Positions 3,802 to 32,637 of a stretch of DNA of 64,000 nt are shown here, piece after piece. The DNA is from Naegleria gruberi (lineage: Eukaryota). Position 1 is the stretch's first letter. Every line of letters begins with the position of its first letter. The stretch is taken from the NCBI GenBank assembly GCA_000004985.1, contig GG738857.1; one strand, written 5' to 3'. Position numbers and translations under genes: made by a program. The notes below the pieces were generated by a model. It did no database searches. It was not told the origin of the DNA and was given only the letters and a program-made list of their open reading frames with translations.

Positions 3802-5543
3802 NNNNNNNNNNNNNNNNNNNNNNNNNNNNNNNNNNNNNNNNNNNNNNNNNNNNNNNNNNNNNNNNNNNNNNNNNNNNNNNNNNNNNNNNNNNNNNNNNNN
3901 NNNNNNNNNNNNNNNNNNNNNNNNNNNNNNNNNNNNNNNNNNNNNNNNNNNNNNNNNNNNNNNNNNNNNNNNNNNNNNNNNNNNNNNNNNNNNNNNNNNN
4001 NNNNNNNNNNNNNNNNNNNNNNNNNNNNNNNNNNNNNNNNNNNNNNNNNNNNNNNNNNNNNNNNNNNNNNNNNNNNNNNNNNNNNNNNNNNNNNNNNNNN
4101 NNNNNNNNNNNNNNNNNNNNNNNNNNNNNNNNNNNNNNNNNNNNNNNNNNNNNNNNNNNNNNNNNNNNNNNNNNNNNNNNNNNNNNNNNNNNNNNNNNNN
4201 NNNNNNNNNNNNNNNNNNNNNNNNNNNNNNNNNNNNNNNNNNNNNNNNNNNNNNNNNNNNNNNNNNNNNNNNNNNNNNNNNNNNNNNNNNNNNNNNNNNN
4301 NNNNNNNNNNNNNNNNNNNNNNNNNNNNNNNNNNNNNNNNNNNNNNNNNNNNNNNNNNNNNNNNNNNNNNNNNNNNNNNNNNNNNNNNNNNNNNNNNNNN
4401 NNNNNNNNNNNNNNNNNNNNNNNNNNNNNNNNNNNNNNNNNNNNNNNNNNNNNNNNNNNNNNNNNNNNNNNNNNNNNNNNNNNNNNNNNNNNNNNNNNNN
4501 NNNNNNNNNNNNNNNNNNNNNNNNNNNNNNNNNNNNNNNNNNNNNNNNNNNNNNNNNNNNNNNNNNNNNNNNNNNNNNNNNNNNNNNNNNNNNNNNNNNN
4601 NNNNNNNNNNNNNNNNNNNNNNNNNNNNNNNNNNNNNNNNNNNNNNNNNNNNNNNNNNNNNNNNNNNNNNNNNNNNNNNNNNNNNNNNNNNNNNNNNNNN
4701 NNNNNNNNNNNNNNNNNNNNNNNNNNNNNNNNNNNNNNNNNNNNNNNNNNNNNNNNNNNNNNNNNNNNNNNNNNNNNNNNNNNNNNNNNNNNNNNNNNNN
4801 NNNNNNNNNNNNNNNNNNNNNNNNNNNNNNNNNNNNNNNNNNNNNNNNNNNNNNNNNNNNNNNNNNNNNNNNNNNNNNNNNNNNNNNNNNNNNNNNNNNN
4901 NNNNNNNNNNNNNNNNNNNNNNNNNNNNNNNNNNNNNNNNNNNNNNNNNNNNNNNNNNNNNNNNNNNNNNNNNNNNNNNNNNNNNNNNNNNNNNNNNNNN
5001 NNNNNNNNNNNNNNNNNNNNNNNNNNNNNNNNNNNNNNNNNNNNNNNNNNNNNNNNNNNNNNNNNNNNNNNNNNNNNNNNNNNNNNNNNNNNNNNNNNNN
5101 NNNNNNNNNNNNNNNNNNNNNNNNNNNNNNNNNNNNNNNNNNNNNNNNNNNNNNNNNNNNNNNNNNNNNNNNNNNNNNNNNNNNNNNNNNNNNNNNNNNN
5201 NNNNNNNNNNNNNNNNNNNNNNNNNNNNNNNNNNNNNNNNNNNNNNNNNNNNNNNNNNNNNNNNNNNNNNNNNNNNNNNNNNNNNNNNNNNNNNNNNNNN
5301 NNNNNNNNNNNNNNNNNNNNNNNNNNNNNNNNNNNNNNNNNNNNNNNNNNNNNNNNNNNNNNNNNNNNNNNNNNNNNNNNNNNNNNNNNNNNNNNNNNNN
5401 NNNNNNNNNNNNNNNNNNNNNNNNNNNNNNNNNNNNNNNNNNNNNNNNNNNNNNNNNNNNNNNNNNNNNNNNNNNNNNNNNNNNNNNNNNNNNNNNNNNN
5501 NNNNNNNNNNNNNNNNNNNNNNNNNNNNNNNNNNNNNNNNNNN
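3802..5543. other. Assembly gap (N run)
   Basis: 1742 consecutive N. Confidence 1.
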
Positions 5544-6857: not shown

Positions 6858-7827
6858 CGGGTTTGAGCCACACCAAGCTCATTTGAGAAAGTGTAATTTA
6901 ATTTTACGACGGGTTTGAGCCACACCATGTTCATTTGAAACAATTTCAAGTCGTTTTTACATCGGGTTTGACGACAACCACTGTTTTAAAGATAACATTT
7001 GTGAAAAATCGACTGATCTCAATCATTATTAAGAATTTGAGTATACTCCAATGGAATGTTACCATCTACATACAGTTTAGAACATTTTCCATCCCCTTGT
7101 AAAAATTCCTTAATAATTTTGAACTATTCAAAGTTCAGTAAGAATGCAAAAATTTTAATTTGTTGTATAGTATAATACAGTATCATCAAAAAGTTGGATA
7201 ACTCATTCTTTTGAAAAGAAGCAACGGGTTTGAGCCACTCCACGTTCATTTGAAACAATTTCAAAAAGTTTTTACATCGGGTTGGATGACAACCATTGTT
7301 TTAAAGATTACAGTTGTGAAAAATCGACTGATCTCAATCATTTCTGAGAATTTAAGTATACTGTAAAGGACTGGTACCATTTCTATCGAGTTTTGAACAT
7401 TTTCCATCTACTTGAAAAAATTCCTTACTAATTGTGAAGTAAGAAAAGTTCAGTAAGAATGTAAAAATTTTAATTTGTTGTATAGTATAATACAGTCTTG
7501 TCAAAAGGTTGGATACGTCACTCTTTCGAAAAGAAGCAACGGGTTTGAGCCACTCCACGTTCATTTGAAACAATTTCAAACAGTTTTTACATCGGGTTGG
7601 ATAACAACCATTGTTTTAAAGATTACAGTTGTGAAAAAATGGCAAATCTCAATCATTTTTGAGAATTTAACTATACTGTAAAAGACTGTCACCATTTCCA
7701 TCGAGTTTTGAACATTTTCCAATCACTTGTAAAAAATTCTTAATAATTGTGAACTACTCAAAGTTCACTAAGATAGAAATATTTCATAAACTTATAGTTC
7801 CTTATGTAAGGAATTGTCAAAAGGTCT
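6858..7827. repeat. 315-bp satellite array A, about 3 units, truncated by the gap at 7828
   Basis: The motif 'gggtttgagccac.cca.g.tcatttgaaacaatttcaa..gtttttacatcgggtt.ga..acaacca.tgttttaaagat.aca.ttgtgaaaaa' recurs at 6911, 7226 and 7541, an exact 315-bp period. A shorter partial unit sits at 6858. Confidence 0.85.
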
Positions 7828-7877: not shown

Positions 7878-8190
7878 ACCCAACCCAAACCCAAACCCAA
7901 ACCCAAACCCAAACCCAAACCCAAACCCAAACCCAAACCCAAACCCAAACCCAAACCCAAACCCAAACCCAAACCCAAACCCAAACCCAAACCCAAACCC
8001 AAACCCAAACCCAAACCCAAACCCAAACCCAAACCCAAACCCAAACCCAAACCCAAACCCAAACCCAAACCCAAACCCAAACCCAAACCCAAACCCAAAC
8101 CCAAACCCAAACCCAAACCAAAACCATACCCAAACCCAAACCCAAACCCAAACCCAAACCCAAACCAAAACCAAACCCAAACCCAACCAA
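7878..8190. repeat. Third telomere-like (AAACCC)n tract
   Basis: Perfect hexamers begin at the gap edge. Variants CCAAAACCATACCC and CCAAAACC appear near 8115-8170. Confidence 0.9.
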
Positions 8191-8280
8191 AAACCTAAAA
8201 ACCCAAACCTAAAAACCCAAACCTAAAAACCCAAACCTAAAAACCCAAACCTAAAAACCCAAACCTAAAAACCTAAAAAT
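8191..8280. repeat. 14-bp (CCTAAAAACCCAAA)n telomere-derived micro-array
   Basis: 'cctaaaaacccaaa' occurs 5 times in tandem, followed by 'cctaaaaacctaaaaat'. It lies at the junction between tract 3 and subtelomeric element copy B. Confidence 0.8.
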
Positions 8281-15119: not shown

Positions 15120-15870
15120 AAAATTTCAAAAATATTGGAACAACCAGTCCATCACGACTCTGTTGATTCTTGGAGTAGTTTCACATCTATTAACTCCAAG
15201 AATTTCACCACATCATCTCATCATCATTTAAATAATAGTATTAATAGTAATTTTTGGAATTTAGTCCTTCATCATGATTTGGAAATTATTTTATTATTTG
15301 GAAAAATTCAAGTTGATAAACCAGCATCGGAACAACTACCAACCATCATCATTGTTATTTTCCATCATTATAATAGTAATATTTGTGGACTATAAATCTG
15401 ATAATAGTAATATTTTAGTGAAATTCAATATTTTCACTAAAATCATCATCACTGCCAGATTTATATGATAATTTGGAAAACTTTCAATCTAGTATTGTTC
15501 AGCATGGTCGATTTCATCAGGTAAAATCACTTCCTACCATTTTCCTATTGATTATCATCATGATAATTTTTGAACCATATCTCAACATGTACTTCACCAA
15601 CTTGGAAAATGTCTTTCATCAACTATTCAAATACATAATAACAATATATTTATTATCAGATTTTCATCATTTTGTTGTTTTACCAACTTCCGAAAATTCA
15701 TGGTCGCCAATCATGATTCATGCCAAAAGTACACAACCAATCATCTTGAAACATTAATAAACTGTTATTAGTATTAATGTAGATGCAACACCAATTATTT
15801 CGTTTTAATTGGTTGAAATCATAAAGATATTAATTTTTCTGTTTTTAATTTAAATTTCACATCACCTACA
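15120..15870. repeat. ~750-bp dispersed non-coding repeat, copy 1 (second copy at 23770-24510)
   Basis: The two copies are about 90% identical over ~700-750 bp. Landmarks: 'ttaactccaagaatttcaccacatcatctcatcatcatttaaataatagtattaa' and 'cagcatggtcgatttcatcaggtaaaatcacttcc'. Only short ORFs without coding periodicity are present. Confidence 0.8.
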
Positions 15871-17503: not shown

Positions 17504-20500
17504 TTACAATTTAAAGTTTCCTGTGTTTGTAAATAATTTTTGAATCATTAATTTTACAATAGCTGGTGGAAGAGTTGCCAAAAGAGAATAAAACCATGCC
17601 TGATACATTGTCTGATCAATAACAACATATAAAAATCCATTAATATCAAATCTACATCCAAATATATTCCTCATTCTTGTTTTCTCACTCCAAAATTGTA
17701 TATACTGGAAGGATTGCAATAATTTTGGAAGGGCTTGAGTCGTTGCCTTATCCTGTTCATGATTTTGAATTGCTCCTTGAATTTTAACTCTTTCCTCAAA
17801 CACTAAAATGCAATTTCTCCAACAAAAGTAATATAAAGTTGCTGCAGGGTCAACTACAAGGAATAATACAGCAATGTCTAATCCCAAGATGATGTACATT
17901 GGTTGAATGGTTTGGGCAGTGAATTCAATATTTGTAAAGAGGGAAATTAAGGATAAGACTACGGAACCTGCCTTTGTTAAGACGAAAGCAATCTATTGTA
18001 TTTGAATTAATATGAAAATTTGAATATTGAGCTAACTTACAATTAAATTATTCTTCAAATAAACCATTTTGGCATCGACAATCTTTTGAATATATTTCAT
18101 TCTCTTGTGCCAAACGATGGCAAAGTCCTTATCGAGTATGTAGCACTTATTTCTTGATAAATTAATCTTAATTTGAGTATTAGTATCATAAGAGATGGTA
18201 TCTGCATTATCATAGACTTTGAATTTCGTTTCTGTCTCTTCTAATAGTACAATAAATTCCTTTAGAGAGGCTGTAACTGATTGATTAATATCCATCCAAG
18301 TAGCTAATTCCAAAATAATTTTAGTCAATTGAGAAAAATCATAACTTACAAATTAATGGATAAAACATTAAAAATCCAAAAACGAAATTACAAGAAACAA
18401 TTAAGAAAGTATATGGATTGGTAATGGTTGGCATTCCTTTGAGTTGAAACCATGAGAAAATTTGAGGAATCAAGAAGAAGCCACAATAGTACAAGACAAT
18501 GTACATCATAAAATTCAATCCTGGTCTAATAGCTCTAATATATTTCAAGTATCTCTCATTTCTGTAAATGCTACTGAACTTGCTCTTCTTCACAAAGACA
18601 GTTCCGTTTGTAATTGGAGTGAACGAATATTCCTTATCATTGAAATTGTCTAAAAATTCTCTTGAATTCAAATATTCCACATAGGCTTCTCTGTTCTCAA
18701 ATGTTTTAACATTGACACGATCTGTGTTCTTTTCAATTAGAATTTCCTCGTGTGGGAAAATTCGATCATCCTTTGCTGTAACAATGATAAATTCATTCTT
18801 CTTTCTTTCCAATTCTTCGAATTGAGTTGAATTGAATTCTGGATCTTCATTGAGAGATGGAGTATTTTGTAGTGGTTGGTCAATGTCATTGTAAGCTACA
18901 TAATAACTATCAACATTGTGATCACCATTATCGAGGAGTTCAATTTCATTATCATCCTCCTTCTTGTTCTTTTCTCTCAGTTCAGCAAGTTCATATAATT
19001 TACCGAAAACTTTTCCTGCTTGTGAGGTGTCTCCTAATTGAGTGGATCGTTTGTCTCTTCTCTTATTCTTCAATTCTAGTAACTCAGTTTCATGTTTAAA
19101 GAAAGAATAGGTACAATTTGGCATTCCCTTGATTGTGGAATAGGCACTGTCAAAAATCAAATCAAACATCTTTCTAGTCCACTTGAAAATATGTAATCCA
19201 ACAAATTTCAAAAATGCAGACTTGTAAACAAAATAATAAGTGAAAATGAAAATAGCAAACATTGATGGAAGAAAAACAATTTCGACAGGATGAGAGTTTT
19301 GTCTAGTACTTGGTTGAGTTGACTCATAAATTGCAATTAAAACAGTTGGAACACCAGAAACACAAACCACAAACAAGAACAAGTTAAGACTCATCATTAA
19401 ATCAACTGGCCATGTCAGAATTGAACCTAAATACAAGATCCAGGATCTTCCTCTATCTCTAAATCGTTCTCCAAGTGATGGTTTTGAGAATAAATGTGAA
19501 GGATCGAATCTTTCATCTGTTGGATCATCACTTTTTACACTTTCTTCTCCTTGTTGATGATTTTCAATTATTCTATTATCAGAATTTCTACTTTTTTGAA
19601 CCATGTATTTGAAATCAAAATATGAAAGTAATAAAAAGAAACCAAACATGGCAAATGAAAGGGCAATTACCAAAACAGCAGTAATAATCATCAAATCATA
19701 ATTGAAACTTGTACTCGAGTGGTAGACACGAGCAGCTTCCTTAACAATTGAAACAACTGCAAACCAAGTCATGAATCTAATTCCACTAAACTCTGTTTGC
19801 TCATAGAAAATACTGTACAAGTAATGTAGATATTTAGGTACGTTTCCTGACATGTTTCTCTTCAATTTCAACGCCTTTTCCTCAATCTCTCTCTTATTCT
19901 TAATGGAAAAGTAATATTTTGGAATGAGATAGGTCGAGCATGTACAGATTGAAACACCAATGGCATATAGGAATGTCACCACGTTGAGAATGAAATCGTA
20001 CAATGGAACGTCATCTGGAATTTCAGTAACATAAAAGAAGGAGCAACTAATTGATACGATCATTCCAATACAAAGAAAAACCACTCTAAATTTGAGTCTG
20101 AATGATTTTGAAATCTTCTCTGCTGTTGTTGTGGTTGAAGTTGAGTTGAAGGCCTTATTGTGAATGAGCGTCTTTTTGTGTTCTTTCAATTCTCTCAATT
20201 GAATGGCAGTCTTTTTAGAGGCCTTTGATTGACCTCCTTGATCCAATATAGCTCCACATAATGGTAGGGTGACCAGAATAATAAATTGAATAGCTAGACC
20301 GAGAGAAATTGCATCGTTTCTACTCGAGTCAACAATTTGGCTCCAATACGTGCCACCAGTTTCCATTGGAGTCAACTGAACTCCAAATCTGAATAAGCAA
20401 GTCATTAGTAAGACAAATATCATCATGACAATGTAGAGAATATTTCTAGTGACAGCATCTAGGAATTTTCTTGAGAATTTCTCATTAGATTTTGAGTTAA

Positions 20501-21383
20501 CTAAACCTTTCTTTACAATAAAGTCAATATCCTTTTGAATTGCCAAATTTGATCTCAACAAATTATGATTATTCTGCAAATATTGATAAACTTCCAAACT
20601 ACAGTAAGAACCAATTGAAATGACAATCAAGGCACCAATAAGTAATGATATTTGCAATACCTGATCCAAACTAATCCAATCCTGAAGTGAAATAATCTTA
20701 TCGAAAGCAAACTTGAACGGATGTGAAGTCAAAGCAAATCCAATAATGATTCCAGGACTCGATTCAACTGTTTCACACATTTCTGCCAATAATTTATAAG
20801 CACACAACTCGTGAATGGCCAAAGCAACACCATACATGGCTCTAAACACATAAATTGTTTGTGAAACTTCTGAAAATTTTGTAAAATCAGACAAGGAAAA
20901 GTAAAATACCAAAATGCAAACATATTCCATCAAGACAGCCATTCCCAATCCAACCAGAGTTCCAAAATGCAACGTATAATGCACTCCTGTATAAATACTC
21001 TTTCTAATCAATGAATACCAAGCTAGCAAAATTAATCCAAACAGAAATGCAACTCCAAAAGTTACCAAATGTGCAATTCTCATTGAAAAATTGAAAATAT
21101 AATCAAAATGCTCCATTTCCTCTTGTGTTGAATTAATTCTCACAGTTACGTATTGTGAAGGATTAACAGCATCTAAAGCAAATAATGCAAAACTGAGTGA
21201 ACACCACAACATTCCTAAATTGTAAGATTTGTAAAGTGAATATTTGGATTGACCTTTCTTTTTGAAACTGTCCTTGTAGAGTTTGTATGGATCGGAGGGA
21301 ATTTCATCAGAATCTAATTTCAATTTTTTGGAGGGAGCCATCTTTTCGATGGTTTTTAATTCTTCAAATGACATTTTTGACAA
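17504..21383 (-). CDS. Large polytopic membrane protein, 3 exons (~1270 aa), function unknown
   Basis: The exons are 21383..18350, 18303..18041 and 17992..17504. The introns, 18304-18349 (46 bp) and 17993-18040 (48 bp), both start GTAAGT and end AG. They join the 1014-aa ORF in frame with the downstream ORFs 18032..18328 and 17504..17899. The product has more than 20 predicted hydrophobic helices. Confidence 0.7.
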
Positions 21384-21592: not shown

Positions 21593-23089
21593 TCATAAAA
21601 TCATTTCCTTCTCACTTTCTTCCTTACTTTCCAACAACTTTGCCGATTTCTCCTTAAAATAATCCGAACCTATCTGAATCAACACTCCAACAGTTATGAT
21701 AACAATAGCTCCACCAGTATACCAACTAAACTCATCCATCCCCAAAATAAAGAACAAAATATCAGTTGCCGGTGCCACAAATGAATTAATCAAAATCAAG
21801 GTAATGCTCGAAGTCATTTTCAATAGAATTGCAGTGAAAGCGTAGGTGCCGACGTATCCCATGATGAATACGAAAGTGTCCAAGCTGGCCATGCCACAGC
21901 CATCGAGGGAGGTTGGTTGGGTGGTGTTGGAAGAGGAATAGTTGGAAAATTGGAAGGTTTGATTGAGATTAGTATAGTTTCCGATTGGAGATGTTTGATT
22001 TTGATTGAAGAGACAACCGAAACCACGATCGAACATGTTACCTAAATCGCTCAAGTTGTGAATGCCAACACCTGGAACAACCATATTGAACCAGAATGAA
22101 CTAGCATCGACTACAATCTGATAAATGCTGACCCACAAGAGTAAATGCAAATAATCAAGTTTTTGATGTTGTTTCGAATAGAGTTCTTGGACGACTGACA
22201 TTAAGGAGCCAGGAATAATACCTACTAAAAAGATCAAGGACCAGAAAACTGAACCGTCCATTGATTTTGGATCATTGGCAATTTTGATGAAAACTGGAAT
22301 TAAGGTGACAATGACACCTGCCAAAACAATCAATGCAGCAAGCAATTCCAACGAAAAGAATTTCAAGGTATGTTTCCAATAAGACTTATTCTCAGAAAAT
22401 GGTCTCTTTTTCAACATGATTGGTAAGTGAATCAAAATATAAGCCATGACAAATGTCATTGGCACAGCACTTTGTGACAGGATAGGTTGCAAAGCAGCTG
22501 GCGTGGCATGTGCAGCAAACAAGACGAGTAAACCATTCATGGAATCCAAGGCACCAATAACGAAGAGAGACCGATGGGAAAGTCTTCCTCTCTTGACTGG
22601 TTTCTTCTCAATTTCTTCAACGTCATTCGATTCTTGTTCATTTTCCAAAGCATTAAGTGAAGAGTTTGATTGATCCAATCCAGAGGAAACAGAATCACCC
22701 TTCAACAATGAACTATTCTCTTGATGTTTACCATTACGAAGTGCCTTTCTTCTCATCAAGAACTTTTTGTAAACTTTTCCAATAAAAGCATTTATATGTA
22801 CTTCCAAATATTTCTCATAAACATCTCTCACAACCAAACAAACTCCAAATACAACCACAAAACTAGCAGAACAAGTGACCAAAATGAAATAAGGTCCACT
22901 TGGCATGTCATCAGCCATTTTCTTAAAGAAAACTCCTTGAACACAATTTGACACAAACAATCCAACACAACACAATGTTAAAATGATAAAGTACAAAACC
23001 AAATGATTGGTTTTAAAGGTAGCCCATCCAACATCGCTTCCAATGCTAGTCATTGCACGAGATTCTTGTTTATCTTGCTTTTCAGACAT
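21593..23089 (-). CDS. CRT-like (chloroquine-resistance-transporter-like / drug-metabolite transporter superfamily) transporter, 498 aa
   Basis: About 10 predicted TM helices with the CRT-family pattern: a hydrophilic Ser/Asn/Glu-rich loop after TM2 and 'DSMNGLLVLFAAHATPAALQPILSQSAVPMTFV'. Confidence 0.6.
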   Translation of the reverse strand: MSEKQDKQESRAMTSIGSDVGWATFKTNHLVLYFIILTLCCVGLFVSNCVQGVFFKKMADDMPSGPYFILVTCSASFVVVFGVCLVVRDVYEKYLEVHINAFIGKVYKKFLMRRKALRNGKHQENSSLLKGDSVSSGLDQSNSSLNALENEQESNDVEEIEKKPVKRGRLSHRSLFVIGALDSMNGLLVLFAAHATPAALQPILSQSAVPMTFVMAYILIHLPIMLKKRPFSENKSYWKHTLKFFSLELLAALIVLAGVIVTLIPVFIKIANDPKSMDGSVFWSLIFLVGIIPGSLMSVVQELYSKQHQKLDYLHLLLWVSIYQIVVDASSFWFNMVVPGVGIHNLSDLGNMFDRGFGCLFNQNQTSPIGNYTNLNQTFQFSNYSSSNTTQPTSLDGCGMASLDTFVFIMGYVGTYAFTAILLKMTSSITLILINSFVAPATDILFFILGMDEFSWYTGGAIVIITVGVLIQIGSDYFKEKSAKLLESKEESEKEMIL

Positions 23090-23769
23090 TTTTTAAGTGT
23101 GTGTGGAATGAGTTGTGTTTGATCGTGGCGATATTTATAGTGAATGAAGAGTGTGATAATGCTGTTAAGAAGGACACAAGAATAGAATGAGTAAGGACAA
23201 CTTTGTGGAGTTCTCCTTACTATGTCCATTTTAGAAGTGTTAATTAATTTGGACATTTGACTCCGCATTTTAATGGCACGCTCCCAAATATTCCCCATAA
23301 GAAAAGAATCAAAAGTGAATATGCACTTTGTAATCAATGGATCTGATTAATAATACGCACTCATGAGTGAAAATAATGTGCACTTCAAATGTGCAGTGGA
23401 GTTTCAACTATTTTTCGCTCCGTTGCTTTTCAAACTCCGAACAAAGATTGTTGGCGTTTTTACAAACAAGCGTTTCATAATATGATGTGGCATTATGAGA
23501 ATAATTGTAAATTATTAAGGAAACCCTCTGTGAATTGATTGGCAATTTAGGAGTAAATGAATTAAATCTTGGAGCATTGAAAGAAGGTATTCCAGATTGT
23601 GATTTACAACCTTGAGAATCAATAGACAGCTCAATAAGACAAGCATATTTTTAATAATGATGTTATGCGCCAATATTAATCACACAGTAGCCATTCCAAT
23701 TTTCACCACTTACCTTTTTTGAGGTTATTAAAGGACATGGAAATATTTCTTAAAAATATTAGATCAACA

Positions 23770-24510
23770 TCAGGTATATCATGCCTGTGTTGATTCTTGG
23801 TGTAATTTCACATGTATTAACTCCAAGAATTTCACCACATCATCTCATCATCATTTAAATAATAGTATTAACAGTAATTTTTGGAATTTAATCCTTCATC
23901 ATGATTTGGAAATAATTTTATTATTCGGAAAAATTCAAGTTGGTACATCATCATCGGAACAACTACCAACCATCATCATTGTTATTTATCATCATTATAA
24001 TAGTAATATTTGTGGACTATAAATCTTATAATAGTAATATATTAGTGAAATTCAATACTAAAATCATCATCACTGCCAGATTTATATGATAATTTGGAAA
24101 ACTTTCAATCTAGTATTGCTCAGCATGGTCGATTTCATCAGGTAAAATCACTTCCGAACATTTCCCTATTGATTATCATCATGATAGGTACATGTATATT
24201 TTCAAAATGTACTTGAACCATATCTCAACATGTACTTCACCAACTTGAAAAATGTCTTTATCACTACTATTCAAATACATAATAACAATATATTTATTAT
24301 CAGATTTTCATCATTTTGTGTTTTTGTCAACTTCGGGTTATTCATGGTCACCAATCATGATCCATGCCAAAAGTACACAGCCAATCATCTTGAAACATTA
24401 ATAAACTTTTATTAGTATTATTGTAGATGTACCATATCAATTATTTCGTCTTGTCAAGATTTGGATTTTTCTGTTTTTCATTAAATTTCACATCACCTAC
24501 ATTGTCTCCT
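23770..24510. repeat. ~750-bp dispersed non-coding repeat, copy 2
   Basis: See the 15120-15870 entry. Same orientation, intergenic. Confidence 0.8.
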
Positions 24511-24788
24511 ATGATGAAAAGTATATAGGTAGGACGTAAGCAATACATAGTCGATACTCTATTCATTGTTTGCTGTTTTATGGTGTATTCGAGATTTTGA
24601 AATCTTGAGAAATATCCAGAGGTCATTCACTGAATAATTATAATTCCTCTTTCAATGGAAAGGAATAAAATTGGCATGAGCTTGCAACAAATGAGTTTCC
24701 ATAACAATATGTTTTGCATAAGCAATTATTAGTTTAAATTCCAACTTAAAGGTTGATTTCTAAAAATAAGGTGCTGTTGTATACCTTG

Positions 24789-25259
24789 TTATTCATTAGG
24801 TTGAATTTGTTGAGATTCTTGTGAGATTAGTCTAGTTTCCACACTCGTCACCTCTTCAATTCCCATACCACAAATAGTATTTACATAAAATTCCATATTC
24901 GATTCACAGCCAGTCATTAATATTTCCACAATTTTATCATTCTTCACCATAAATTCCACAATTTCTCCTTCATTATTCGAAACTTTCACGTAATGCCATT
25001 CCTCCTCCGAATATAAACTTTCAAATTTATAATTTTTCTTCTCCACAACCGGCACATACTGTGTTGTTTTTGCTAATTGAATTGTTTCATATGTATCTCC
25101 AGTGAAAATATCAACTCCGCATAAATATGCTTTTTTGGTTCCGTGTCTTCCTGTTTTTTGAAAAAAACAAGTCAATATTTTGCAAGGATTTCCATTGATG
25201 AGAAGATAACTTCCCTTTTTGATTTTATCTGATTCGATGGTGTGAGTGTAAGATTTCAT
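24789..25259 (-). CDS. Translation initiation factor eIF5A paralogue 1, with hypusine-site Lys replaced by Arg
   Basis: Over most of its length the DNA is near-identical to copy 2. It has the conserved eIF5A core, 'NGNPCKILTC..KTG(K/R)HGTKKAYLCGVDIFTGD'. Here the hypusination codon reads AGA (Arg), 'TGRHG', and there is a one-residue insertion 'FFQ'. I take the start as the internal Met 'MKSYTH'. The upstream in-frame Met at 25310 seems unlikely. Confidence 0.75.
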   Translation of the reverse strand: MKSYTHTIESDKIKKGSYLLINGNPCKILTCFFQKTGRHGTKKAYLCGVDIFTGDTYETIQLAKTTQYVPVVEKKNYKFESLYSEEEWHYVKVSNNEGEIVEFMVKNDKIVEILMTGCESNMEFYVNTICGMGIEEVTSVETRLISQESQQIQPNE

Positions 25260-25336
25260 TTTTTTTTGATTGTTTTTTTGTAAATTGCAAATTGAAAATT
25301 GCATCAACAAGTGTTATCAAGTAACAATGAATTCAT

Positions 25337-25386
25337 NNNNNNNNNNNNNNNNNNNNNNNNNNNNNNNNNNNNNNNNNNNNNNNNNN
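25337..25386. other. Assembly gap (N run) between the two eIF5A copies
   Basis: 50 N. Confidence 1.
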
Positions 25387-25522
25387 ATCTGAATCAATGA
25401 ACAATTTAGAAGCAAATGAATCTTGGAGCATTGAAAGAAGGTATTCCAGATTGTGATTTACCATCTTGAGAATAAATAGACCTGTTAATGGGTTGATTTA
25501 AAAATACCTAAATTTCAATTTG

Positions 25523-25990
25523 TTATTCATTTGTTTGAATTTGTTGAGCTTCTTGTGAGATTAGTCTAGTTTCCACACTCGTCACCTCTTCAATTCCCAT
25601 ACCACAAATAGTATTTACATAAAATTCCATATTCGATTCACAGCCAGTCATTAATATTTCCACAATTTTATCATTCTTCACCATAAATTCCACAATTTCT
25701 CCTTCATTATTCGAAACTTTCACGTAATGCCATTCCTCCTCCGAATATAAACTTTCAAATTTATAATTTTTCTTCTCCACAATCGGCACATACTGTGTTG
25801 TTTTTGCAAATTGAATTGTTTCATATGAATCTCCGGTGAAAATATCAACTCCACATAAATAAGCTTTTTTGGTTCCGTGTTTTCCTGTTTTTTGTAAACA
25901 AGTCAATATTTTGCAAGGATTTCCATTGATGAGAAGATAACTTCCCTTTTTGATTTTATCTGTTTCGATGGAGTGAGTGTAAGATTTCAT
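25523..25990 (-). CDS. Translation initiation factor eIF5A (155 aa), canonical
   Basis: Full eIF5A signature including the hypusine loop 'KTGKHGTKKA' (AAA Lys codon) and the C-terminal OB-fold region. Single exon. Confidence 0.9.
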   Translation of the reverse strand: MKSYTHSIETDKIKKGSYLLINGNPCKILTCLQKTGKHGTKKAYLCGVDIFTGDSYETIQFAKTTQYVPIVEKKNYKFESLYSEEEWHYVKVSNNEGEIVEFMVKNDKIVEILMTGCESNMEFYVNTICGMGIEEVTSVETRLISQEAQQIQTNE

Positions 25991-26208
25991 TTTCAGTTTC
26001 GAATTTTTTTTTGATTGTTTTTTGAAAAATGCAAATTGAAAATTACATCATCAATACGTGTGACAATCTTGAAACTCCACTCTTGCCAATTGCTCTTCAT
26101 GAATTTTAACACCAAACATTTTGAATTTCTTTGAACTGTTAGTATTCGATAAATTAGTATGTTAATTTAACAAAAATTTCCCGCTCAATTCCAAACATCC
26201 AAAAAAAA

Positions 26209-29200
26209 ATGTCTCTCCAAATCAAAGCCCTCACACGCTCACTGCATGTTCTGATGATGTTATGTTTGATAATGATGATCATTGTGATGGAGGGCAATTT
26301 TATTTCCTCCGAATTATTACTGAACAATGATAAATTTCGAATACGTGATGATCACGAAAATGTACTAAATTATATGAGGAGGAAAGCCTTGAGTAGTTGG
26401 GAAAATGATGATCAAATGATGATGGAAAATTCAAATCAAATATTGTTGAATGATTCCGATGCCAGTGGTGTTGTTATTAGTAATAACAGCAGCACTATTC
26501 CAAATATATTTTATTTAAATACTAATATTCCGACCATTAATAATGCATCATCTTTAAATTGTAATAATATTTCGAATCCTTGTACGAAAGGATCACAAAT
26601 TTTAAATTATTTCTATGAAAATTTAGTTTACAAGACGGATAGTATTGATGTTTATGTGATTGGCAATTTGACAGATTGTTTTGATGGGACTGACAGATCG
26701 AATTCCTCCACAAGTAATTTATTAACAATGCGGCTGATAGGTCAAGATCCTAATCAATATTCCTATATGAATTGCAACATGAGATTATTATTTACAAATG
26801 TCTATTTTCATTACTTTAACCTTTACAAATATGATGTGAAAAATTTGAATACAGTAGGATTTGTGAATTGTAACATTAATTCAGTGAATGGAGATGAAAA
26901 AATTGAAACTGGAAAGTTAGTAATACGAAACTCAATTTCTAGGAACTCTAATTTTGAGACTACTAGTGTAGTGGATATTGACAAATTTGTCATGATTGAA
27001 AGTGATTTGAAAGTTTTCTTTCATGATCTGTATTTTTGGAAATCAAGATTTCTGACAGTTAATACTCTTAATAATTCTTTATTTGTGGATAGTTCAATAG
27101 AGTTGAATAGATTGTCAATGGTAGCAGTTGAAAATAGCAGATTCGAGAGATCTCAATTAACTGCTGTTTACCTATCCGCTTTGGAAATCAATAATTGTAC
27201 AGTATACGAAACTGTGAGATGGCTACGATTGAAAGGAACTATTCTCTTATCTCTAGAGAACAGTGTCATTAGTGAGAGTCCATACGACTCATCGAGTAAG
27301 GGAATTATAGAATCAATATTATCGAGCTATATTCACATTAACCAGTGTAAATTTCTTTCCAATAACAATATAGCAGTTTATGTGGACGAAACTGGTTTCT
27401 TCCATACGAGAAAATCGTTATTTAGTAATAATTTGGGGGCTGTATATATTGGAGAAATAGTTAACTTGGGAGATGTATTAACTGGAGTCCATATTATATC
27501 ATCCACATTTTCAAGAAACTTTGGAGTAAATGGTGGTGCCATAACTCTTCCCAACACAACTAGTGAAATATTTCGTTGTGAATTTTATGCAAATATTGCT
27601 CAAGCAGGAGGTGCAATTTTTTCCACTTCTGGTGAATTGAACATACTCAACAGCATCTTTGAAGAAAATCATGCTTTTTATTCTCCTTCATGTCCCACTC
27701 CATTTTGTGGAAGAGGAGGAGCCATCTATGCTCAAAACCCAATTCTTTTAAATATTGACTCTAAAAACACTTTCCGTAGAAACTATGCAAGAGATGGAGG
27801 CGCAATTTATGTTGATATTTATGATGACAATGAATTCTGGAAATCATGGATTTTAGTACTGAACTGTTTAGAAAACTCTGCAACCTTTTATGGAGATTGT
27901 TTTTATTCGAAACAAGATATGAAAGAACATGATTTTCTAAAAATTTTAAAGAACTCTCCAAATGCATTAGGTTCTTCTAAATTAACAATTGTGGACGTCA
28001 AACCAAGCTCCCTTGAAGTATATCCAGGTCAGAAAGCATCCATAGCTTTGACTATTATGGATGGGTTCAATAATACTTTACAAAAGCTGCAAACACAACC
28101 AGTAATAGCGAGCTCAGATCCTGGAGTAGCATTTCAGACATTTTTTGAAAATACCACATTCACCATCTCTCTACAAGTTACTAATCACAATACCACCTCA
28201 GCTGTGGCTTCATTTTATGTTGGAGAAGCAAATGTTAACATTACTGTCAAAATCATACCATGCCCAGATGGCTATTCATTAGTTAATTATTCTGCATCAG
28301 AAACAAGCAAGAGATTGTGCCTCAAAAATCCTGATCCACCACTCCATATCATTTTACCAGCTATTTTTTCAAGTATAATATTGTTCATTGTTGGAATCTT
28401 GTTGGGAATTTTAATAATATATCTAGGTTGGAATATTAATGAAAAGTTGAAACGTCTCAAGAAAAAGGAGAAGGCTGAAAAGAACTTGGCTCAGCGTCTT
28501 GTTGATAAGCAAGTTATCTTTTCAGAAAACAATGAGTTGAATCCATCAACAGATCTAAAGACGTCACTATTGGGAAGCTATTATGCCAACAGTCAAGGAT
28601 CCTCTTCATCTGGAAAGAATAGAAAAATTAAGGAGAAAATTAGGATGCAAGCAGAGCAAAACTATTTAATTCCAATAGAAAATATTGATATTGTTCGAAA
28701 AATTGCTGAAGGAGCAAATGGCATCGTATACCTCGGGAAATGGCTTGGCACTGAAGTTGCTATGAAGAGCTTGAAATTGGAATATGTTACGGAAGAGGAG
28801 AATGAGGAATTTGAAAAGGAGGCAGCATTATTGAAATCCCTTAAACACCCAAATATTGTCACCAGTTTTGGCGTTTGTATGAGTGGAAATATTAAATACA
28901 TGATTGTGGAATACATGCCAAGAGGAAGCTTGGACAGGGCAATTTATCAATCTAGAACTGGAGCTCAAATACTCAAATTGAAACAAAAAGTGAATATCCT
29001 TCTTGGAGTTGCAAACGGTATGAACTATTTACACTCTCTTAAACCATATAGTATCATACATAGAGATTTGAAACCTGGAAACATTTTGCTTGATCATAAT
29101 TTATCAAGTAAGGTAACAGATTTTGGACTCTCCAAAATTATAGGAGGAAATTCTACCAACACAATGACTACAGCACTGGGAACTTTATTTTACATGAGGT

Positions 29201-29658
29201 GAGTTGTTTAATTTAACTTTGGTTATAAGAATAACAATAGTCCTGAGATTCTAGGTGCAGACAGTCCAAGTGAATTCTCAACCAAGCTCGATGTCTATAG
29301 TTTTGCAATCATCATGTACGAGCTGATGTTTGAAGAATCTCCTTATTTAAATCACAAATCGCAAAAGATTTACAGATTCATCACACCCAATACTAACACT
29401 GAAAATCCTTTCAATATTCCAACTAAAGTGGTAAAGGGATTGAGACCTACCATTCCATTTTCATCCCTAGAAGAGCAGTATATTTGGATAGAGGAATTTG
29501 TTCTTCCTAGAGAACCAGAGATGGATGTTCAAATTGTTTCGAACGTATTTTCATTATTTATCGATTTGATGATTGAATGTTGGAGTGGAAAAGCTCAAGA
29601 AAGGCCAGATTTTGGAGAAATTTCCGAAAGATTAGGTGAAATGTTGAGAACATTATAG
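26209..29658 (+). CDS. Receptor-like Ser/Thr protein kinase: signal peptide, PMP/β-helix-repeat ectodomain, TM helix and kinase domain (2 exons)
   Basis: Exon 1 is 26209..29198 and exon 2 is 29241..29658. The 42-bp intron, 29199-29240, runs GTGAGT...AG and splits the kinase 'SPE' (APE) motif. Splicing restores '...GTLFYMSPEILGADSPSEFSTKLDVYSF'. The ectodomain has repeated 'GGAI(Y/F)' motifs (PMP-type right-handed β-helix repeats). The TM helix is 'ILPAIFSSIILFIVGILLGILIIYLGW'. The kinase motifs are GxGxxG-like 'IAEGANGIVY', 'VAMKSLK', 'HRDLKPGNILLD' and 'DFGLS'. Confidence 0.8.
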
Positions 29659-31479: not shown

Positions 31480-32637
31480 TTAATACTGATCTAGACAATA
31501 CTCTTTCAATTCTTTCAGTTGTTCATAAATTTCCTTTGCTCCTTCAATTCCAATAGGATTTCCATGAATTCGAAGATGGGTTAATGCTTTCATTGTTGAA
31601 ATGGCTTTTGCTCCTTCGTATCCAATATTATTTGAATAAAGAGAAAGATCTGTTAACTTTTCAAGAGTTATTAGAAACTTGGCTCCTGCATCACCAATAT
31701 TATTTTCACAAAGTTTAAGAATTCTTAATTGTTTCAATTTTTCAGAAATAAACTTGACTCCATGTTCATCAATTCTAGTCGTTTGAAGGGAAAGATTTGT
31801 CAGAGAAATTATTCCACTTATGAATTTGACTCCTTCATTACCTAAATCATTTTGATTCATGTTCAATTCAGTTAATTTTGGTAATTTGCTAATAAATTGA
31901 GCTCCTACATAACTAATACTATTGAATGAAAGGTTTAGAATAGCGAGATTAGGTAAATCACTCACAAACTTGGCTCCTACATCACCAATCGCATTGGTAC
32001 TGATATTTAGTTCGGTCAATTGAGTCATTTTTCTTAATAACATAGCACCCCTGAAACCAATGACATTATTAAAGACACTTAAAGCAGTCAATTTATCCAA
32101 TTTTCTGATATATTGAACTCCTTCCACTCCGAGTTGATTCGTTCCAATGTCAAGTTTAGTCAATTGTTTCATTTCACTTATATATTTAGCTCCTTGTTTT
32201 CCCATTTTATTATTAGCAATATTCAGACTGGTCAACTGATTCAATTCGCTAATAATTTTAGTTCCTTCTAGTCCAATTTGATTGATCTCCAGCTCTGTTA
32301 ATTGTTTCAGTTGACTAATTGCTTTAGCTCCTTCAATTCCAATTCTATTCCAAGATATTACAAGTCTAGTCAATTGTTGCAGTTGATCAATAAATGTAAC
32401 CAATGTAGATGCACCTTGGCCTTTTCCAATAGAACATCCAGTAACATCAAGATCAGTCAACTGTCTCATATTACAAATTGATTTAATGTCCTCTTCATCC
32501 ATTCCAATGTATGCAATGGAAAGAGTTTTCAATTTTTTCATATTCATTAGAATACTGCACCATGGTTTAATTTTCATATTGTGAAACTCTACTTGTTCGA
32601 AACAGTTTAGAAATTGACTTTGGATTCGGTTGACCAT
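31480..32637 (-). CDS. Leucine-rich-repeat protein, RNI-like 24-residue repeats (385 aa)
   Basis: About 11 tandem repeats of the form 'LTxLxIxxNxIGxxGAKxISxLKQ', for example 'LTSLNIANNKMGKQGAKYISEMKQ'. Confidence 0.7.
   Translation of the reverse strand: MVNRIQSQFLNCFEQVEFHNMKIKPWCSILMNMKKLKTLSIAYIGMDEEDIKSICNMRQLTDLDVTGCSIGKGQGASTLVTFIDQLQQLTRLVISWNRIGIEGAKAISQLKQLTELEINQIGLEGTKIISELNQLTSLNIANNKMGKQGAKYISEMKQLTKLDIGTNQLGVEGVQYIRKLDKLTALSVFNNVIGFRGAMLLRKMTQLTELNISTNAIGDVGAKFVSDLPNLAILNLSFNSISYVGAQFISKLPKLTELNMNQNDLGNEGVKFISGIISLTNLSLQTTRIDEHGVKFISEKLKQLRILKLCENNIGDAGAKFLITLEKLTDLSLYSNNIGYEGAKAISTMKALTHLRIHGNPIGIEGAKEIYEQLKELKEYCLDQY

What the first reader, a model, noticed from the sequence alone, without database searches (positions are those of the whole stretch)
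24789..25990. Tandem eIF5A paralogues; one has lost the hypusine lysine (AAA>AGA, K>R)
The two adjacent minus-strand genes share long identical DNA stretches, so the duplication is recent. Copy 2 has the universal hypusination loop 'KTGKHG'. Copy 1 reads 'FFQKTGRHG', with Arg in place of the lysine that deoxyhypusine synthase modifies, plus a one-residue insertion beside it. The rest of the ORF is intact, with no stops or frameshifts. Hypusine is needed for all known eIF5A functions. An intact but unmodifiable paralogue is therefore one of three things: a very young pseudogene, a dominant-negative regulatory variant, or a neofunctionalised protein. A 50-N gap separates the copies, so the local assembly needs confirmation.
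Basis: partly seen in the sequence, partly recalled or inferred. Interest (0 to 1): 0.75.

Follow-up and report, generated by a model that had tools for sequence, protein, structure and literature searches.

The report
Divergent eIF5A-like tandem pair, Naegleria
Two adjacent genes near a chromosome end of the amoeba Naegleria gruberi encode fast-evolving, highly divergent relatives of translation factor eIF5A, and one copy has very recently swapped the lysine that normally carries the hypusine modification for arginine, which is most likely drift in a spare copy and not a proven new function.

Summary
Two intact minus-strand ORFs lie either side of a 50-N gap: 25523-25990 (155 aa, KTGKHG) and 24789-25259 (156 aa, KTGRHG, AGA at 25146-25148). 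They are 94% identical. The window is Naegleria gruberi. The Arg copy is XP_002679544.1 ('predicted protein'); the Lys copy is unannotated.

They are not ordinary eIF5A:
- They are about 31% identical to the canonical Naegleria eIF5A (PDB 7N4D).
- They score below the TIGR00037 cut-off and give no Pfam C-domain hit.
- They have lost 23 of 46 conserved columns.
- They are not syntenic with the canonical locus.
- The predicted fold is still full-length eIF5A.

An environmental contig 97% identical to copy 1 and its flanks keeps Lys (AAG), so K>R is a very young change or an uncorrected base call. The indel polarity is reversed: the Lys copy has a one-residue deletion, and the Arg copy has the canonical spacing. 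A 233-bp identical tract indicates gene conversion, not a recent duplication. The N-domain evolves nearly neutrally (omega 0.6-1.2), while the C-domain has no amino-acid change.

Most likely this is a subtelomeric, lineage-restricted eIF5A-like pair in which K>R is drift or incipient loss in a redundant copy. I found no canonical eIF5A named as N. gruberi; this is unresolved.

The parts
25523..25990 (-). Copy 2: eIF5A-like ORF, 155 aa, loop 'TC-LQKTGKHGTKK' with Lys37. It has a one-residue deletion in the strand leading into the loop. It is not present in the protein collection, so it is unannotated.
24789..25259 (-). Copy 1: eIF5A-like ORF, 156 aa, loop 'TCFFQKTGRHGTKK' with Arg38. It is identical to XP_002679544.1 / EFC46800.1 / NAEGRDRAFT_32007, 'predicted protein' of Naegleria gruberi.
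25146..25148 (-). AGA (Arg) codon at the hypusine-site position of copy 1. The changed base is G at 25147.
   Evidence: the orthologous codon in L001 is AAG
25880..25882 (-). AAA (Lys) codon at the hypusine-site position of copy 2.
25337..25386 (.). 50-N scaffold gap between the copies. L001 carries 162 more bases upstream of copy 1 that match nothing in the window, so the real gap probably hides more than 160 bp.
24816..25048 (-). 233-bp tract of copy 1 that is identical to 25550-25782 of copy 2: a putative gene-conversion tract covering the C-terminal domain.
   Evidence: (P about 8e-4)
25550..25782 (-). The partner of that 233-bp identical tract, in copy 2.
25260..25310 (-). Conserved 5' flank of copy 1, homologous to 25991-26054 of copy 2. 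It contains an in-frame upstream ATG at 25304 that L001 shares.
25991..26054 (-). Conserved 5' flank of copy 2. It has a 13-nt insertion just before the ATG, and its upstream 'ATGATGTAA' is closed by a stop codon.
25402..25481 (-). 85-bp block 42 bp downstream of copy 2. It is 88% identical to 23543-23627, which lies 1.16 kb downstream of copy 1. It is a remnant of a larger original duplication unit.

Best explanation
The locus is a tandem pair of lineage-restricted, highly divergent eIF5A-like genes. It lies about 25 kb from a telomere-like scaffold end of Naegleria gruberi. It is not the housekeeping eIF5A. Both proteins keep the two-domain eIF5A fold, the basic N-domain and acidic C-domain charge pattern, and the loop core K-T-G-x-H-G...K. 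They have lost half of the residues that canonical eIF5As conserve. The duplication predates the split between the reference strain and an environmental relative. The copies stay similar through gene conversion over the C-terminal domain. The N-terminal, hypusine-loop domain accumulates changes at a nearly neutral rate. Against that background, copy 1 of the reference strain acquired a single A>G transition (AAA>AGA, Lys>Arg) at the hypusine-acceptor position. Inferred: Arg cannot accept the aminobutyl group, so copy 1 cannot be deoxyhypusinated, whatever the status of copy 2. Inferred: the change is most likely tolerated drift, that is, incipient loss of the hypusine-dependent activity in a redundant copy, and not an evolved regulatory or new function.
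For: Identity: copy 1 is XP_002679544.1 of N. gruberi.

Homology and fold: PF21485 scores 62-64 bits. phmmer aligns residues 3-138 to eIF5A structures, best to 7N4D of N. fowleri. The AlphaFold2 model has pLDDT 90.7 and superposes on eIF5A structures with TM 0.80-0.89 at 1.8-2.2 A. Net charge is +5 for the N-domain and -10 for the C-domain, as in N. fowleri eIF5A.

Not canonical: TIGR00037 gives 60.8 and 61.0 bits, below the 75.45 cut-off, against 150 for N. fowleri. There is no PF01287 hit (against 83.5 bits). Only 23 (copy 2) and 22 (copy 1) of 46 columns conserved at 85% or more are kept, and residues invariant in all 112 canonical sequences are lost. There is no synteny with the conserved Ank-lipase | eIF5A | DHHC | kinase locus of N. 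fowleri and N. lovaniensis.

Restricted distribution: the next-best hit among 1.84 billion representatives is only 37% identical. JGI metagenomes and IMG/VR gave nothing.

Young K>R: metagenome contig L001 is 97.2% identical without gaps to 24647-25334, including both copy-1 flanks, and reads SKTGKHG with AAG.

Gene conversion and relaxed N-domain: the 233-bp identical tract has P about 8e-4. N-domain omega is 0.61-1.21. Twelve of 71 N-domain codons vary at the amino-acid level, against 0 of 77 C-domain codons (Fisher P = 9e-5). Copy 1's private changes (3 non-synonymous, 2 synonymous) are similar in number to those of copy 2 and L001.

Subtelomeric setting: (AAACCC)n arrays lie at 1-331, 2668-3080 and 7878-8269.

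Chemistry: K50R prevents hypusine formation (PMC10084858). The loop 46-SKTGKHGHA-54 enters the DHS active-site tunnel (PMC10042821). N. gruberi has a DHS, EFC43118.1 (PMC3663545).
Against: No expression, modification or read-level data could be examined, so 'tolerated drift' is an inference from sequence alone. Redundancy is assumed. Copy 2 has its own lesion, a one-residue deletion in the loop arm. I could not find a canonical eIF5A named as N. gruberi: it is absent from the top 120 hits to N. fowleri eIF5A, and its conserved DHHC neighbour also has no N. gruberi hit. The C-domain shows 0 non-synonymous against 2 synonymous differences to L001, so the genes are under selection, and copy 1 is not a classical pseudogene. 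The loop core KTGKHG plus the downstream Lys survived about 69% overall divergence, which argues that the loop mattered for most of the family's history. The counts are small: 13-17 substitutions per comparison.
Confidence: 0.5

Rival explanations
1. The whole family has moved to a hypusine-independent function carried mainly by the C-terminal OB domain. This is analogous to fungal HEX-1, an eIF5A-fold protein with a structural role. On this reading Lys or Arg at the old acceptor site is functionally neutral and both copies work.
For: Short-term constraint is inverted relative to canonical eIF5A. Twelve of 71 N-domain codons vary, against 0 of 77 C-domain codons. N-domain omega is 0.6-1.2, even between the two Lys-bearing sequences, copy 2 and L001 (1.21). 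The loop arm differs in all three sequences (TC-LQ, TCFFQ, SCVFS) and includes an indel. Residues invariant in 112 canonical eIF5As on both sides of the loop are lost. HEX-1 structures are recovered as distant fold matches. Rare natural precedents exist: P0073 reads SRTGRHG and P0035 lacks the loop.
Against: KTGKHG and the downstream Lys are retained despite only 40% N-domain and 17% C-domain identity to canonical eIF5A. This implies long-term selection on the loop. Among 149 loops in diverse eIF5A-like representatives, 148 have Lys. The charge pattern that suits DHS and ribosome binding is unchanged. There is no C-terminal PTS1-like signal and no other sign of a HEX-1-type role.
Confidence: 0.2
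2. The Arg codon or the tandem arrangement is an artefact of the draft assembly. Either a base-call error occurred near a contig end, or sequences were mis-joined across the 50-N gap.
For: The AGA codon is 189 bases from the contig end that abuts the gap. It is a single-base difference from AAA. The assembly is a gapped draft with seven N runs in this window. No second data set for this strain was reachable: the exact-product look-ups found no record.
Against: Copy 1 is a distinct locus with its own flanks, and an independent metagenome assembly recovered those flanks. Copy 1's other private changes are ordinary substitutions, two of them synonymous, and are similar in number to the private changes of copy 2 and L001. 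There are no indels or ambiguous bases as would be expected from a poor read end. The two copies differ in their flanks, so they are not collapsed alleles.
Confidence: 0.1
3. The Arg copy is a selected regulatory variant. It would be an unmodifiable decoy that binds DHS or the ribosomal E site and tunes hypusination or translation. This would mirror the 'dead paralogue' logic already known for DHS in trypanosomatids and Entamoeba.
For: The ORF is intact, the 5' flank is conserved with copy 2, and the fold and charge pattern are preserved. Apart from Arg, the loop is unchanged and copy 1 has the canonical loop-arm length. Dead paralogues do regulate this pathway (PMC3663545, PMC7909649). Distinct effects of unhypusinated eIF5A have been proposed (PMC11869520, abstract seen).
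Against: The Arg state is not shared by the nearest orthologue, so there is no sign that it has been maintained. Copy 1's branch shows no distinctive selection signal. Whether the family binds DHS at all is untested.
Confidence: 0.07
4. N. gruberi has lost the canonical eIF5A locus and this pair is its only eIF5A. Copy 2 would then be the sole possible hypusine acceptor.
For: No N. gruberi protein appears among the 120 best hits to N. fowleri eIF5A; the lowest listed hit scores 171 bits. The neighbouring DHHC gene is adjacent to eIF5A in N. fowleri, N. lovaniensis, Willaertia and contig L002. It also has no N. gruberi hit. N. gruberi keeps a DHS.
Against: Canonical eIF5A is identical between N. 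fowleri and N. lovaniensis. This family instead changes 10 or more residues between strains only 2.8% apart, with near-neutral N-domain evolution. Both reference copies carry lesions at the loop, and residues invariant in 112 canonical sequences are lost. Annotation is demonstrably incomplete here, since copy 2 itself is unannotated, and the assembly is gapped. One missing region would explain the loss of both adjacent genes.
Confidence: 0.03

Closest known systems
Canonical eIF5A (for example N. fowleri eIF5A PDB 7N4D, human EIF5A1/2, yeast Tif51A/B)
   Same: The two-domain fold is the same, an SH3/KOW-like N-domain plus an OB C-domain (TM 0.80-0.89). The loop core KTGKHG, the downstream Lys, the DIFTG motif and the Pro-Cys motif are shared, as is the charge pattern.
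   Different: Identity is only about 31% (40% in the N-domain, 17% in the C-domain). Scores fall below the TIGR00037 equivalog cut-off, and PF01287 is not detected. Twenty-three or 24 of 46 conserved columns are changed, including residues invariant in 112 sequences. The genes are intronless single ORFs, while the N. fowleri gene spans 817 bp for 157 aa. The genomic context differs. Copy 1 has Arg at the acceptor site and copy 2 has a shortened loop arm.
Engineered eIF5A K50R (human, mouse) and the equivalent yeast Lys-to-Arg mutant
   Same: It is the same substitution at the same structural position. It is expected to abolish deoxyhypusine and hypusine formation (PMC10084858; PMC7909649, section 21).
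   Different: Those are laboratory mutations in the essential housekeeping factor. This is a natural change in a divergent, duplicated, probably dispensable paralogue.
HEX-1, the Woronin body major protein of Pezizomycotina
   Same: It is an eIF5A-domain protein that took on a different role, so it is a precedent for eIF5A-derived paralogues that do not act as translation factors (PMC5656841). It was recovered as a distant sequence and fold match.
   Different: The fold match is weak (TM 0.44-0.47 at about 6 A, E = 0.03-0.1 by sequence). HEX-1 is fungal and peroxisome-targeted, and it is not specifically related to this pair. The Naegleria proteins keep the hypusine loop core.
Giant-virus IF5A homologues (Tupanvirus, Klosneuvirus, Orpheovirus; metagenomic P0006 and P0007)
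   Same: They are divergent, intronless eIF5A-fold proteins (TM 0.76-0.82). The best-scoring full-length relatives of the pair, P0006 and P0007, sit on giant-virus-like contigs carrying MutS, an RNA polymerase subunit, ankyrin, a mitochondrial carrier and UCH. P0006 shares the KTGKHGT variant.
   Different: Identity is no higher than to cellular eIF5A: 18-33%, and the BLOSUM distance is 0.69 to both N. fowleri eIF5A and P0006. The neighbour-joining placement is unstable: the sister is P0108 in 38%, P0006 in 25% and P0106 in 13% of replicates. The neighbouring genes in the window look cellular. IMG/VR gave no hit.
Catalytically dead paralogues in the hypusine pathway (T. brucei DHSp, Entamoeba DHS2)
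   Same: They are duplicates in the same pathway that have lost the key lysine yet are retained and functional as regulators (PMC3663545, PMC7909649).
   Different: Those are enzyme paralogues, conserved across species and experimentally shown to be essential. Here the substrate-like protein has lost the lysine, and only in one strain, with no functional evidence.

Membership tests
Canonical eIF5A (translation factor) | N-terminal IF5A-like domain (Pfam PF21485) | tested here: met
   The copies score 62.3 and 64.2 bits against a cut-off of 27.1.
Canonical eIF5A (translation factor) | C-terminal eIF-5a OB-fold domain (Pfam PF01287) detectable by sequence | tested here: not met
   Neither copy gives a PF01287 hit at E <= 1. 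N. fowleri eIF5A scores 83.5 bits. The OB fold is predicted structurally, but the model's alignment consisted of canonical eIF5As.
Canonical eIF5A (translation factor) | Equivalog-level score to TIGR00037 (eIF_5A) | tested here: not met
   The copies score 60.8 and 61.0 bits against a cut-off of 75.45. The control, N. fowleri and N. lovaniensis eIF5A, scores 150.1 bits.
Canonical eIF5A (translation factor) | Hypusination loop SKTGKHGHA with the acceptor Lys and canonical spacing | tested here: not met
   Copy 1 reads QKTGRHGTK, with Arg at the acceptor. Copy 2 reads QKTGKHGTK, with Lys present, but its loop arm is one residue short (7 against 8 in 112 of 112 canonical sequences). His53 and Ala54, invariant in 112 sequences, are replaced in both copies.
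Canonical eIF5A (translation factor) | Positional orthology with the conserved Naegleria/Willaertia eIF5A locus (eIF5A next to a DHHC palmitoyltransferase) | tested here: not met
   A tblastx comparison of the N. fowleri and N. lovaniensis loci (+/-10 kb) with the 64-kb window matches only the eIF5A-like ORFs themselves.
Canonical eIF5A (translation factor) | Modification by DHS and DOHH, and E-site binding that relieves ribosome stalling | not testable with these tools
   This needs biochemistry. N. gruberi does encode a DHS, EFC43118.1 (PMC3663545).
Processed or decaying pseudogene | Disabled reading frame, or neutral evolution over the whole gene | tested here: not met
   Both ORFs are intact. 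Whole-gene omega is 0.48-0.54. The C-domain has 0 non-synonymous and 2 synonymous differences to L001. Only the N-domain is near-neutral.
HEX-1 / Woronin body protein | Close sequence or fold similarity to HEX-1, and a peroxisomal targeting signal at the C-terminus | tested here: not met
   Sequence E-values are 0.03-0.1 and TM is 0.44-0.47. The C-termini read ...QTNE and ...QPNE, which is not a PTS1-type tripeptide (the PTS1 consensus is from general knowledge).
Bacterial EF-P / EfpL | Three-domain architecture and family-level score | tested here: not met
   TIGR00038 gives 18.4 bits against a cut-off of 185.8. The model has two domains.
Giant-virus-derived IF5A (endogenised viral gene) | Specific phylogenetic affinity to viral IF5A, and viral genes in the neighbourhood | tested here: inconclusive
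   The top full-length hits lie on virus-like contigs. However, distances to cellular and viral homologues are equal, bootstrap placement is unstable, there is no IMG/VR hit, and the neighbours in the window are a CRT-like transporter, a PMP-repeat receptor kinase and an LRR protein.

The most novel reading that the evidence does not exclude
N. gruberi maintains a lineage-specific eIF5A-derived protein family whose selected function now lies in the C-terminal domain. In this family the old hypusine hairpin is being remodelled: Arg in one copy, a shortened arm in the other. The Arg form would then be a working hypusine-independent protein or a DHS/ribosome decoy, which would be the first natural case outside fungal HEX-1. 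The more extreme variant is that the pair is the organism's only eIF5A. The evidence disfavours that variant but does not formally exclude it, because I found no canonical eIF5A named as N. gruberi.
Probability: 0.15. Interest if true: 0.7.

Novelty: new variant of a known kind. Interest (0 to 1): 0.4.

Why it matters
[quoted passage not shown] A natural eIF5A-fold protein with Arg at that site, next to a Lys-bearing twin, would be a ready-made contrast for two questions: what an unmodifiable eIF5A-like protein does, and what DHS needs to recognise its substrate. As it stands, the Arg state is confined to one reference assembly, in a fast-evolving, probably accessory, subtelomeric paralogue. 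Its main present value is therefore as a documented example of how eIF5A duplicates diverge and as an annotation correction: the Lys copy is unannotated and the Arg copy is labelled 'predicted protein'. The side observation may be the more useful lead. I could not find the canonical eIF5A, or its conserved DHHC neighbour, among N. gruberi proteins. That is probably an assembly or annotation hole, and it is cheap to check.

Tried and rejected
Leads that gave nothing:
- Exact-product look-ups for copy 1 and P0001 in the contig index found no record.
- A JGI metagenome scan with the family alignment matched 600 patterns but no relatives.
- An IMG/VR scan found no relatives.
- Literature searches for the accessions (NAEGRDRAFT_32007, XP_002679544, D2V8F6, EFC46800) and for the ENA project of L001 found no papers.
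- Searches for Naegleria with eIF5A or hypusine found only incidental mentions.
- The afdb50 fold library was unavailable.
- The sigma-70 promoter and terminator scan does not apply to a eukaryote and was ignored.

Ideas rejected:
- Collapsed alleles mis-assembled in tandem. The flanks outside the 539-bp unit do not align, and L001 matches only the copy-1 flanks.
- Positional orthologue of canonical eIF5A. There is no synteny.
- Classical pseudogene. The ORFs are intact and the C-domain is constrained.
- HEX-1 or EF-P membership.

Ideas left unresolved:
- Giant-virus origin. Distances to viral-like and cellular homologues are equal, and the neighbour-joining bootstrap is unstable, with long-branch attraction likely. 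One of the alternating 'sisters', P0106, is encoded in a eukaryotic genome.
- Whether contig L002, which carries a canonical eIF5A 78% identical to that of N. fowleri, comes from the N. gruberi clade. Its DHHC neighbour hit N. lovaniensis (72%) and Willaertia (60%) but no N. gruberi protein.
Full report
1. WHAT IS IN THE SEQUENCE

Read on the minus strand, the region holds two intact ORFs separated by a 50-N run at 25337-25386.
- Copy 2 is 25523-25990, 155 aa, and reads ...NPCKILTCLQKTGKHGTKKAYLCGVDIFTG...
- Copy 1 is 24789-25259, 156 aa from the ATG that aligns with copy 2, and reads ...NPCKILTCFFQKTGRHGTKKAYLCGVDIFTG...

The critical codon is AAA at 25880-25882 in copy 2 and AGA at 25146-25148 in copy 1. 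The proteins are 146/156 identical. The repeated DNA unit is 539 bp at 93.5% identity: the CDS plus about 65 bp upstream and 3 bp downstream. The window contains no further copy.

2. ORGANISM AND ANNOTATION

Copy 1 is residue-for-residue XP_002679544.1 / EFC46800.1 / NAEGRDRAFT_32007, a 'predicted protein' of Naegleria gruberi. The exact copy 2 protein is not in the 15-billion-protein collection, so it appears to be unannotated. The window starts with (AAACCC)n arrays at 1-331, 2668-3080 and 7878-8269. The pair therefore sits about 25 kb from a telomere-like scaffold end. From general knowledge, such regions favour duplication, ectopic conversion and lineage-specific genes.

3. ARE THEY eIF5A?

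They are homologues. PF21485 (IF5A-like_N) scores 62-64 bits. phmmer aligns residues 3-138 to solved eIF5A structures, with the best match to 7N4D. One search identifies 7N4D as the eIF5A-family protein of N. fowleri. An AlphaFold2 model (pLDDT 90.7) superposes on eIF5A structures over both domains, with TM 0.80-0.89 at 1.8-2.2 A. One caveat applies: the model's alignment consisted of canonical eIF5As. Net charge is +5 for the N-domain and -10 for the C-domain, the same as in N. fowleri eIF5A.

They fail every test of being the canonical factor:
- They are about 31% identical to N. fowleri eIF5A.
- TIGR00037 gives 60.8 and 61.0 bits against a cut-off of 75.45. The N. fowleri and N. lovaniensis protein P0272 scores 150.
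- Neither copy gives a PF01287 hit, against 83.5 bits for P0272.
- Of 46 columns conserved at 85% or more in 112 canonical eIF5As, copy 2 keeps 23 and copy 1 keeps 22. Residues that are 100% invariant are replaced in both. These include the His and Ala that follow KTGKHG, and the Lys after the DIFTG motif (...DIFTGKK in canonical sequences).
- The canonical gene in N. fowleri and N. lovaniensis has introns and lies between an ankyrin-lipase gene and a DHHC palmitoyltransferase. Nothing in the 64-kb window except the two ORFs matches that locus.

Among 1.84 billion cluster representatives, the next-best relative is only 37% identical. The family is so far known only from this locus and one metagenome contig.

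4. THE ENVIRONMENTAL ORTHOLOGUE

The 90% cluster of copy 1 contains one other protein, P0002. It is encoded on an 850-bp ENA metagenome contig, L001. L001 matches window 24647-25334 at 97.2% identity without gaps and includes both copy-1 flanks. It matches copy 2 only over the 539-bp unit, at 93%. L001 is therefore the orthologue, or a divergent allele, of copy 1. It reads ...SCVFSKTGKHG... with AAG.

Two conclusions follow. First, Lys>Arg arose on the reference-strain lineage after it separated from a relative only 2.8% different, or it is an uncorrected base call. Second, the one-residue length difference predates that split.

5. POLARITY OF THE INDEL

All 112 canonical eIF5As have exactly 8 residues between the invariant Cys and the first loop Lys. 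Copy 1 and L001 also have 8; copy 2 has 7. The Lys-bearing copy is therefore the one with a derived one-residue deletion in the strand that leads into the hairpin. The Arg copy has the canonical spacing. In the reference strain each copy carries its own lesion at the hypusine hairpin.

6. EVOLUTIONARY PATTERN

Whole-gene Nei-Gojobori omega is 0.54 (copy 1 against copy 2), 0.50 (copy 2 against L001) and 0.48 (copy 1 against L001). The changes are very unevenly placed:
- The copies are identical over 233 bp (24816-25048 = 25550-25782). The probability under uniform placement is about 8e-4. L001 differs from both copies there by only two synonymous changes.
- Twelve of 71 N-domain codons vary at the amino-acid level, against 0 of 77 C-domain codons (Fisher P = 9e-5).
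- N-domain omega is 0.61, 1.21 and 0.89 in the three comparisons.

Site patterns in the CDS are nearly star-like: 7 sites support copy 1 + L001, 8 support copy 1 + copy 2, and 5 are private to copy 1. The flanks, however, clearly unite copy 1 with L001.

An 85-bp block 42 bp downstream of copy 2 recurs 1.16 kb downstream of copy 1. The original duplicated unit was therefore larger and has since been rearranged. Together these points indicate an older duplication kept similar by gene conversion, not a very recent duplication.

Copy 1's private changes are K38R, S56T, I71V and two synonymous changes. They are similar in number to those on the other two lineages, so nothing marks copy 1 as being under a different regime.

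One point remains unexplained. Over the long term the N-domain is the better conserved: it is 40% identical to canonical eIF5A against 17% for the C-domain, and the figures for canonical against canonical are 69% and 40%. Among the three family members the pattern is reversed.

7. HOW UNUSUAL IS ARG?

In 112 canonical sequences the acceptor is always Lys. Among the 149 most similar cluster representatives, 148 GxHG loops have Lys. One, P0073, reads SRTGRHGHTK and is a 406-aa fusion protein. A few others lack the motif, including P0035, a triple eIF5A-like repeat. Loss of the Lys is rare but not unprecedented in eIF5A-like proteins.

8. MECHANISTIC READING

Established points:
- DHS transfers the aminobutyl moiety of spermidine to Lys50. 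The loop 46-SKTGKHGHA-54 enters the DHS active-site tunnel, and almost the whole N-domain is needed for modification (PMC10042821).
- K50R prevents hypusine formation (PMC10084858), and the yeast Lys-to-Arg mutant causes growth arrest (PMC7909649, section 21).
- N. gruberi has a DHS, EFC43118.1 (PMC3663545).

Inferred points:
- Copy 1 cannot be deoxyhypusinated.
- Copy 2 and the L001-type protein keep 6 of the 9 loop residues and the Lys, and might still be substrates. The shortened arm of copy 2 and the loss of His53 and Ala54 make this uncertain.
- The Arg state is young and unshared, and the N-domain of the whole family is drifting. I therefore judge the change to be most likely tolerated loss of a hypusine-dependent activity in a redundant copy (confidence about 0.5).

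Four rivals remain: a family-wide hypusine-independent function (0.2), an assembly or base-call artefact (0.1), a selected decoy or regulator (0.07), and the pair being the only eIF5A (0.03).

9. THE OPEN SIDE ISSUE

A search with N. fowleri eIF5A returned the N. fowleri/N. lovaniensis cluster, an unnamed metagenome protein (P0153, 78% identical), Willaertia (71%) and then generic eukaryotes. No protein named N. gruberi appeared among the best 120 hits, the lowest of which scores 171 bits. The DHHC gene lies next to eIF5A in N. fowleri, N. lovaniensis, Willaertia and contig L002. It likewise returned no N. gruberi protein.

The simplest reading is that this locus is missing from the gapped draft assembly or from its annotation. 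Copy 2 shows that the annotation is incomplete. I could not test the genome directly, so this is the first thing to check. The family changes 10 or more residues between near-identical strains, while canonical eIF5A is identical between N. fowleri and N. lovaniensis. That rate argues strongly against the pair being the housekeeping factor.

10. ORIGIN

The pair is intronless. The best-scoring full-length relatives, P0006 and P0007, lie on giant-virus-like metagenome contigs. Giant-virus IF5As share the fold. Against this, distances to N. fowleri eIF5A and to P0006 are equal at 0.69. Neighbour-joining bootstrap placement wanders among long-branch sequences. IMG/VR has no relative, and the neighbouring genes look cellular. 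Whether the family arose by intragenomic duplication or retroposition, or by viral transfer, is unresolved.

11. VERDICT

These are eIF5A-like genes, not eIF5A proper, and the Lys>Arg is a strain-level event with no evidence of selection.

Novelty: a new variant of a known kind. This is a divergent, lineage-restricted eIF5A-like tandem pair, not described in the searched literature.

Interest: moderate, 0.4. It would rise sharply if the Arg allele proved to be fixed and expressed, or if N. gruberi truly lacked a canonical eIF5A.

Noticed in passing
window 1-331, 2668-3080, 7878-8269: Hexamer arrays (AAACCC)n of 55-70 copies, interrupted by large N runs (1084-2666, 3802-5543), in a stretch of 19% G+C with strong GC skew. 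The window seems to begin at a telomere-like chromosome or scaffold end.
   Followed up: partly
window 6909-7773: A 315-bp tandem repeat, 2.7 copies at 87% identity, lies between the telomere-like arrays.
   Followed up: no
window 25523-25990 (-): The Lys-bearing copy 2 is absent from the protein collection, while its neighbour copy 1 is annotated. It is probably a missed gene model next to the assembly gap.
   Followed up: yes
outside the window: N. gruberi proteome; loci L002, L003, L004: I found no protein named N. gruberi for canonical eIF5A or for the DHHC palmitoyltransferase next to it. The eIF5A|DHHC pair is conserved in N. fowleri, N. lovaniensis, Willaertia magna and metagenome contig L002. 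This is either a hole in the assembly or annotation, or a real loss.
   Followed up: partly
window 25304 (-) and L001 193-237: Copy 1 and L001 share an in-frame upstream ATG that would add 15 residues (MQFSIC[N/I]LQKNNQKK). In copy 2 the equivalent 'ATGATGTAA' is closed by a stop codon, and a 13-nt insertion precedes the main ATG.
   Followed up: partly
window 26209-29202 (+): A 997-aa ORF is transcribed divergently from copy 2. It has Chlamydia-PMP-type repeats (GGAI/FxxN), a transmembrane segment and a protein kinase domain cut off at profile position 164 of 263, so an intron probably follows. It looks like a receptor-like kinase.
   Followed up: partly
window 24300-24501 vs 15656-15870; 25402-25481 vs 23543-23627: There are dispersed repeats around the pair: a roughly 200-bp element at 81.6% identity downstream of copy 1, and an 85-bp block at 88% identity found downstream of both copies at different distances.
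   Followed up: partly
proteins P0073, P0035, P0003, P0004, P0005 (deep-search hits): Other unusual eIF5A-like proteins turned up in public data. P0073 is a 406-aa fusion that reads SRTGRHGHTK, with Arg at both loop lysines. P0035 is a triple eIF5A-like repeat without the loop. P0003, P0004 and P0005 are double or triple tandem eIF5A domains.
   Followed up: no
loci L005-L010: The divergent IF5A genes P0006 and P0007 lie on compact, intron-free metagenome contigs. Their neighbours include MutS, an RNA polymerase subunit, ankyrin, thioredoxin, a mitochondrial carrier, UCH and lipase genes, which is typical of giant viruses.
   Followed up: partly
window 21593-23089 (-), 31480-32637 (-): The neighbouring genes include a CRT-like (chloroquine-resistance-transporter-like) membrane protein and a leucine-rich-repeat protein. 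The 1014-aa ORF at 18339-21383 has no Pfam match.
   Followed up: no
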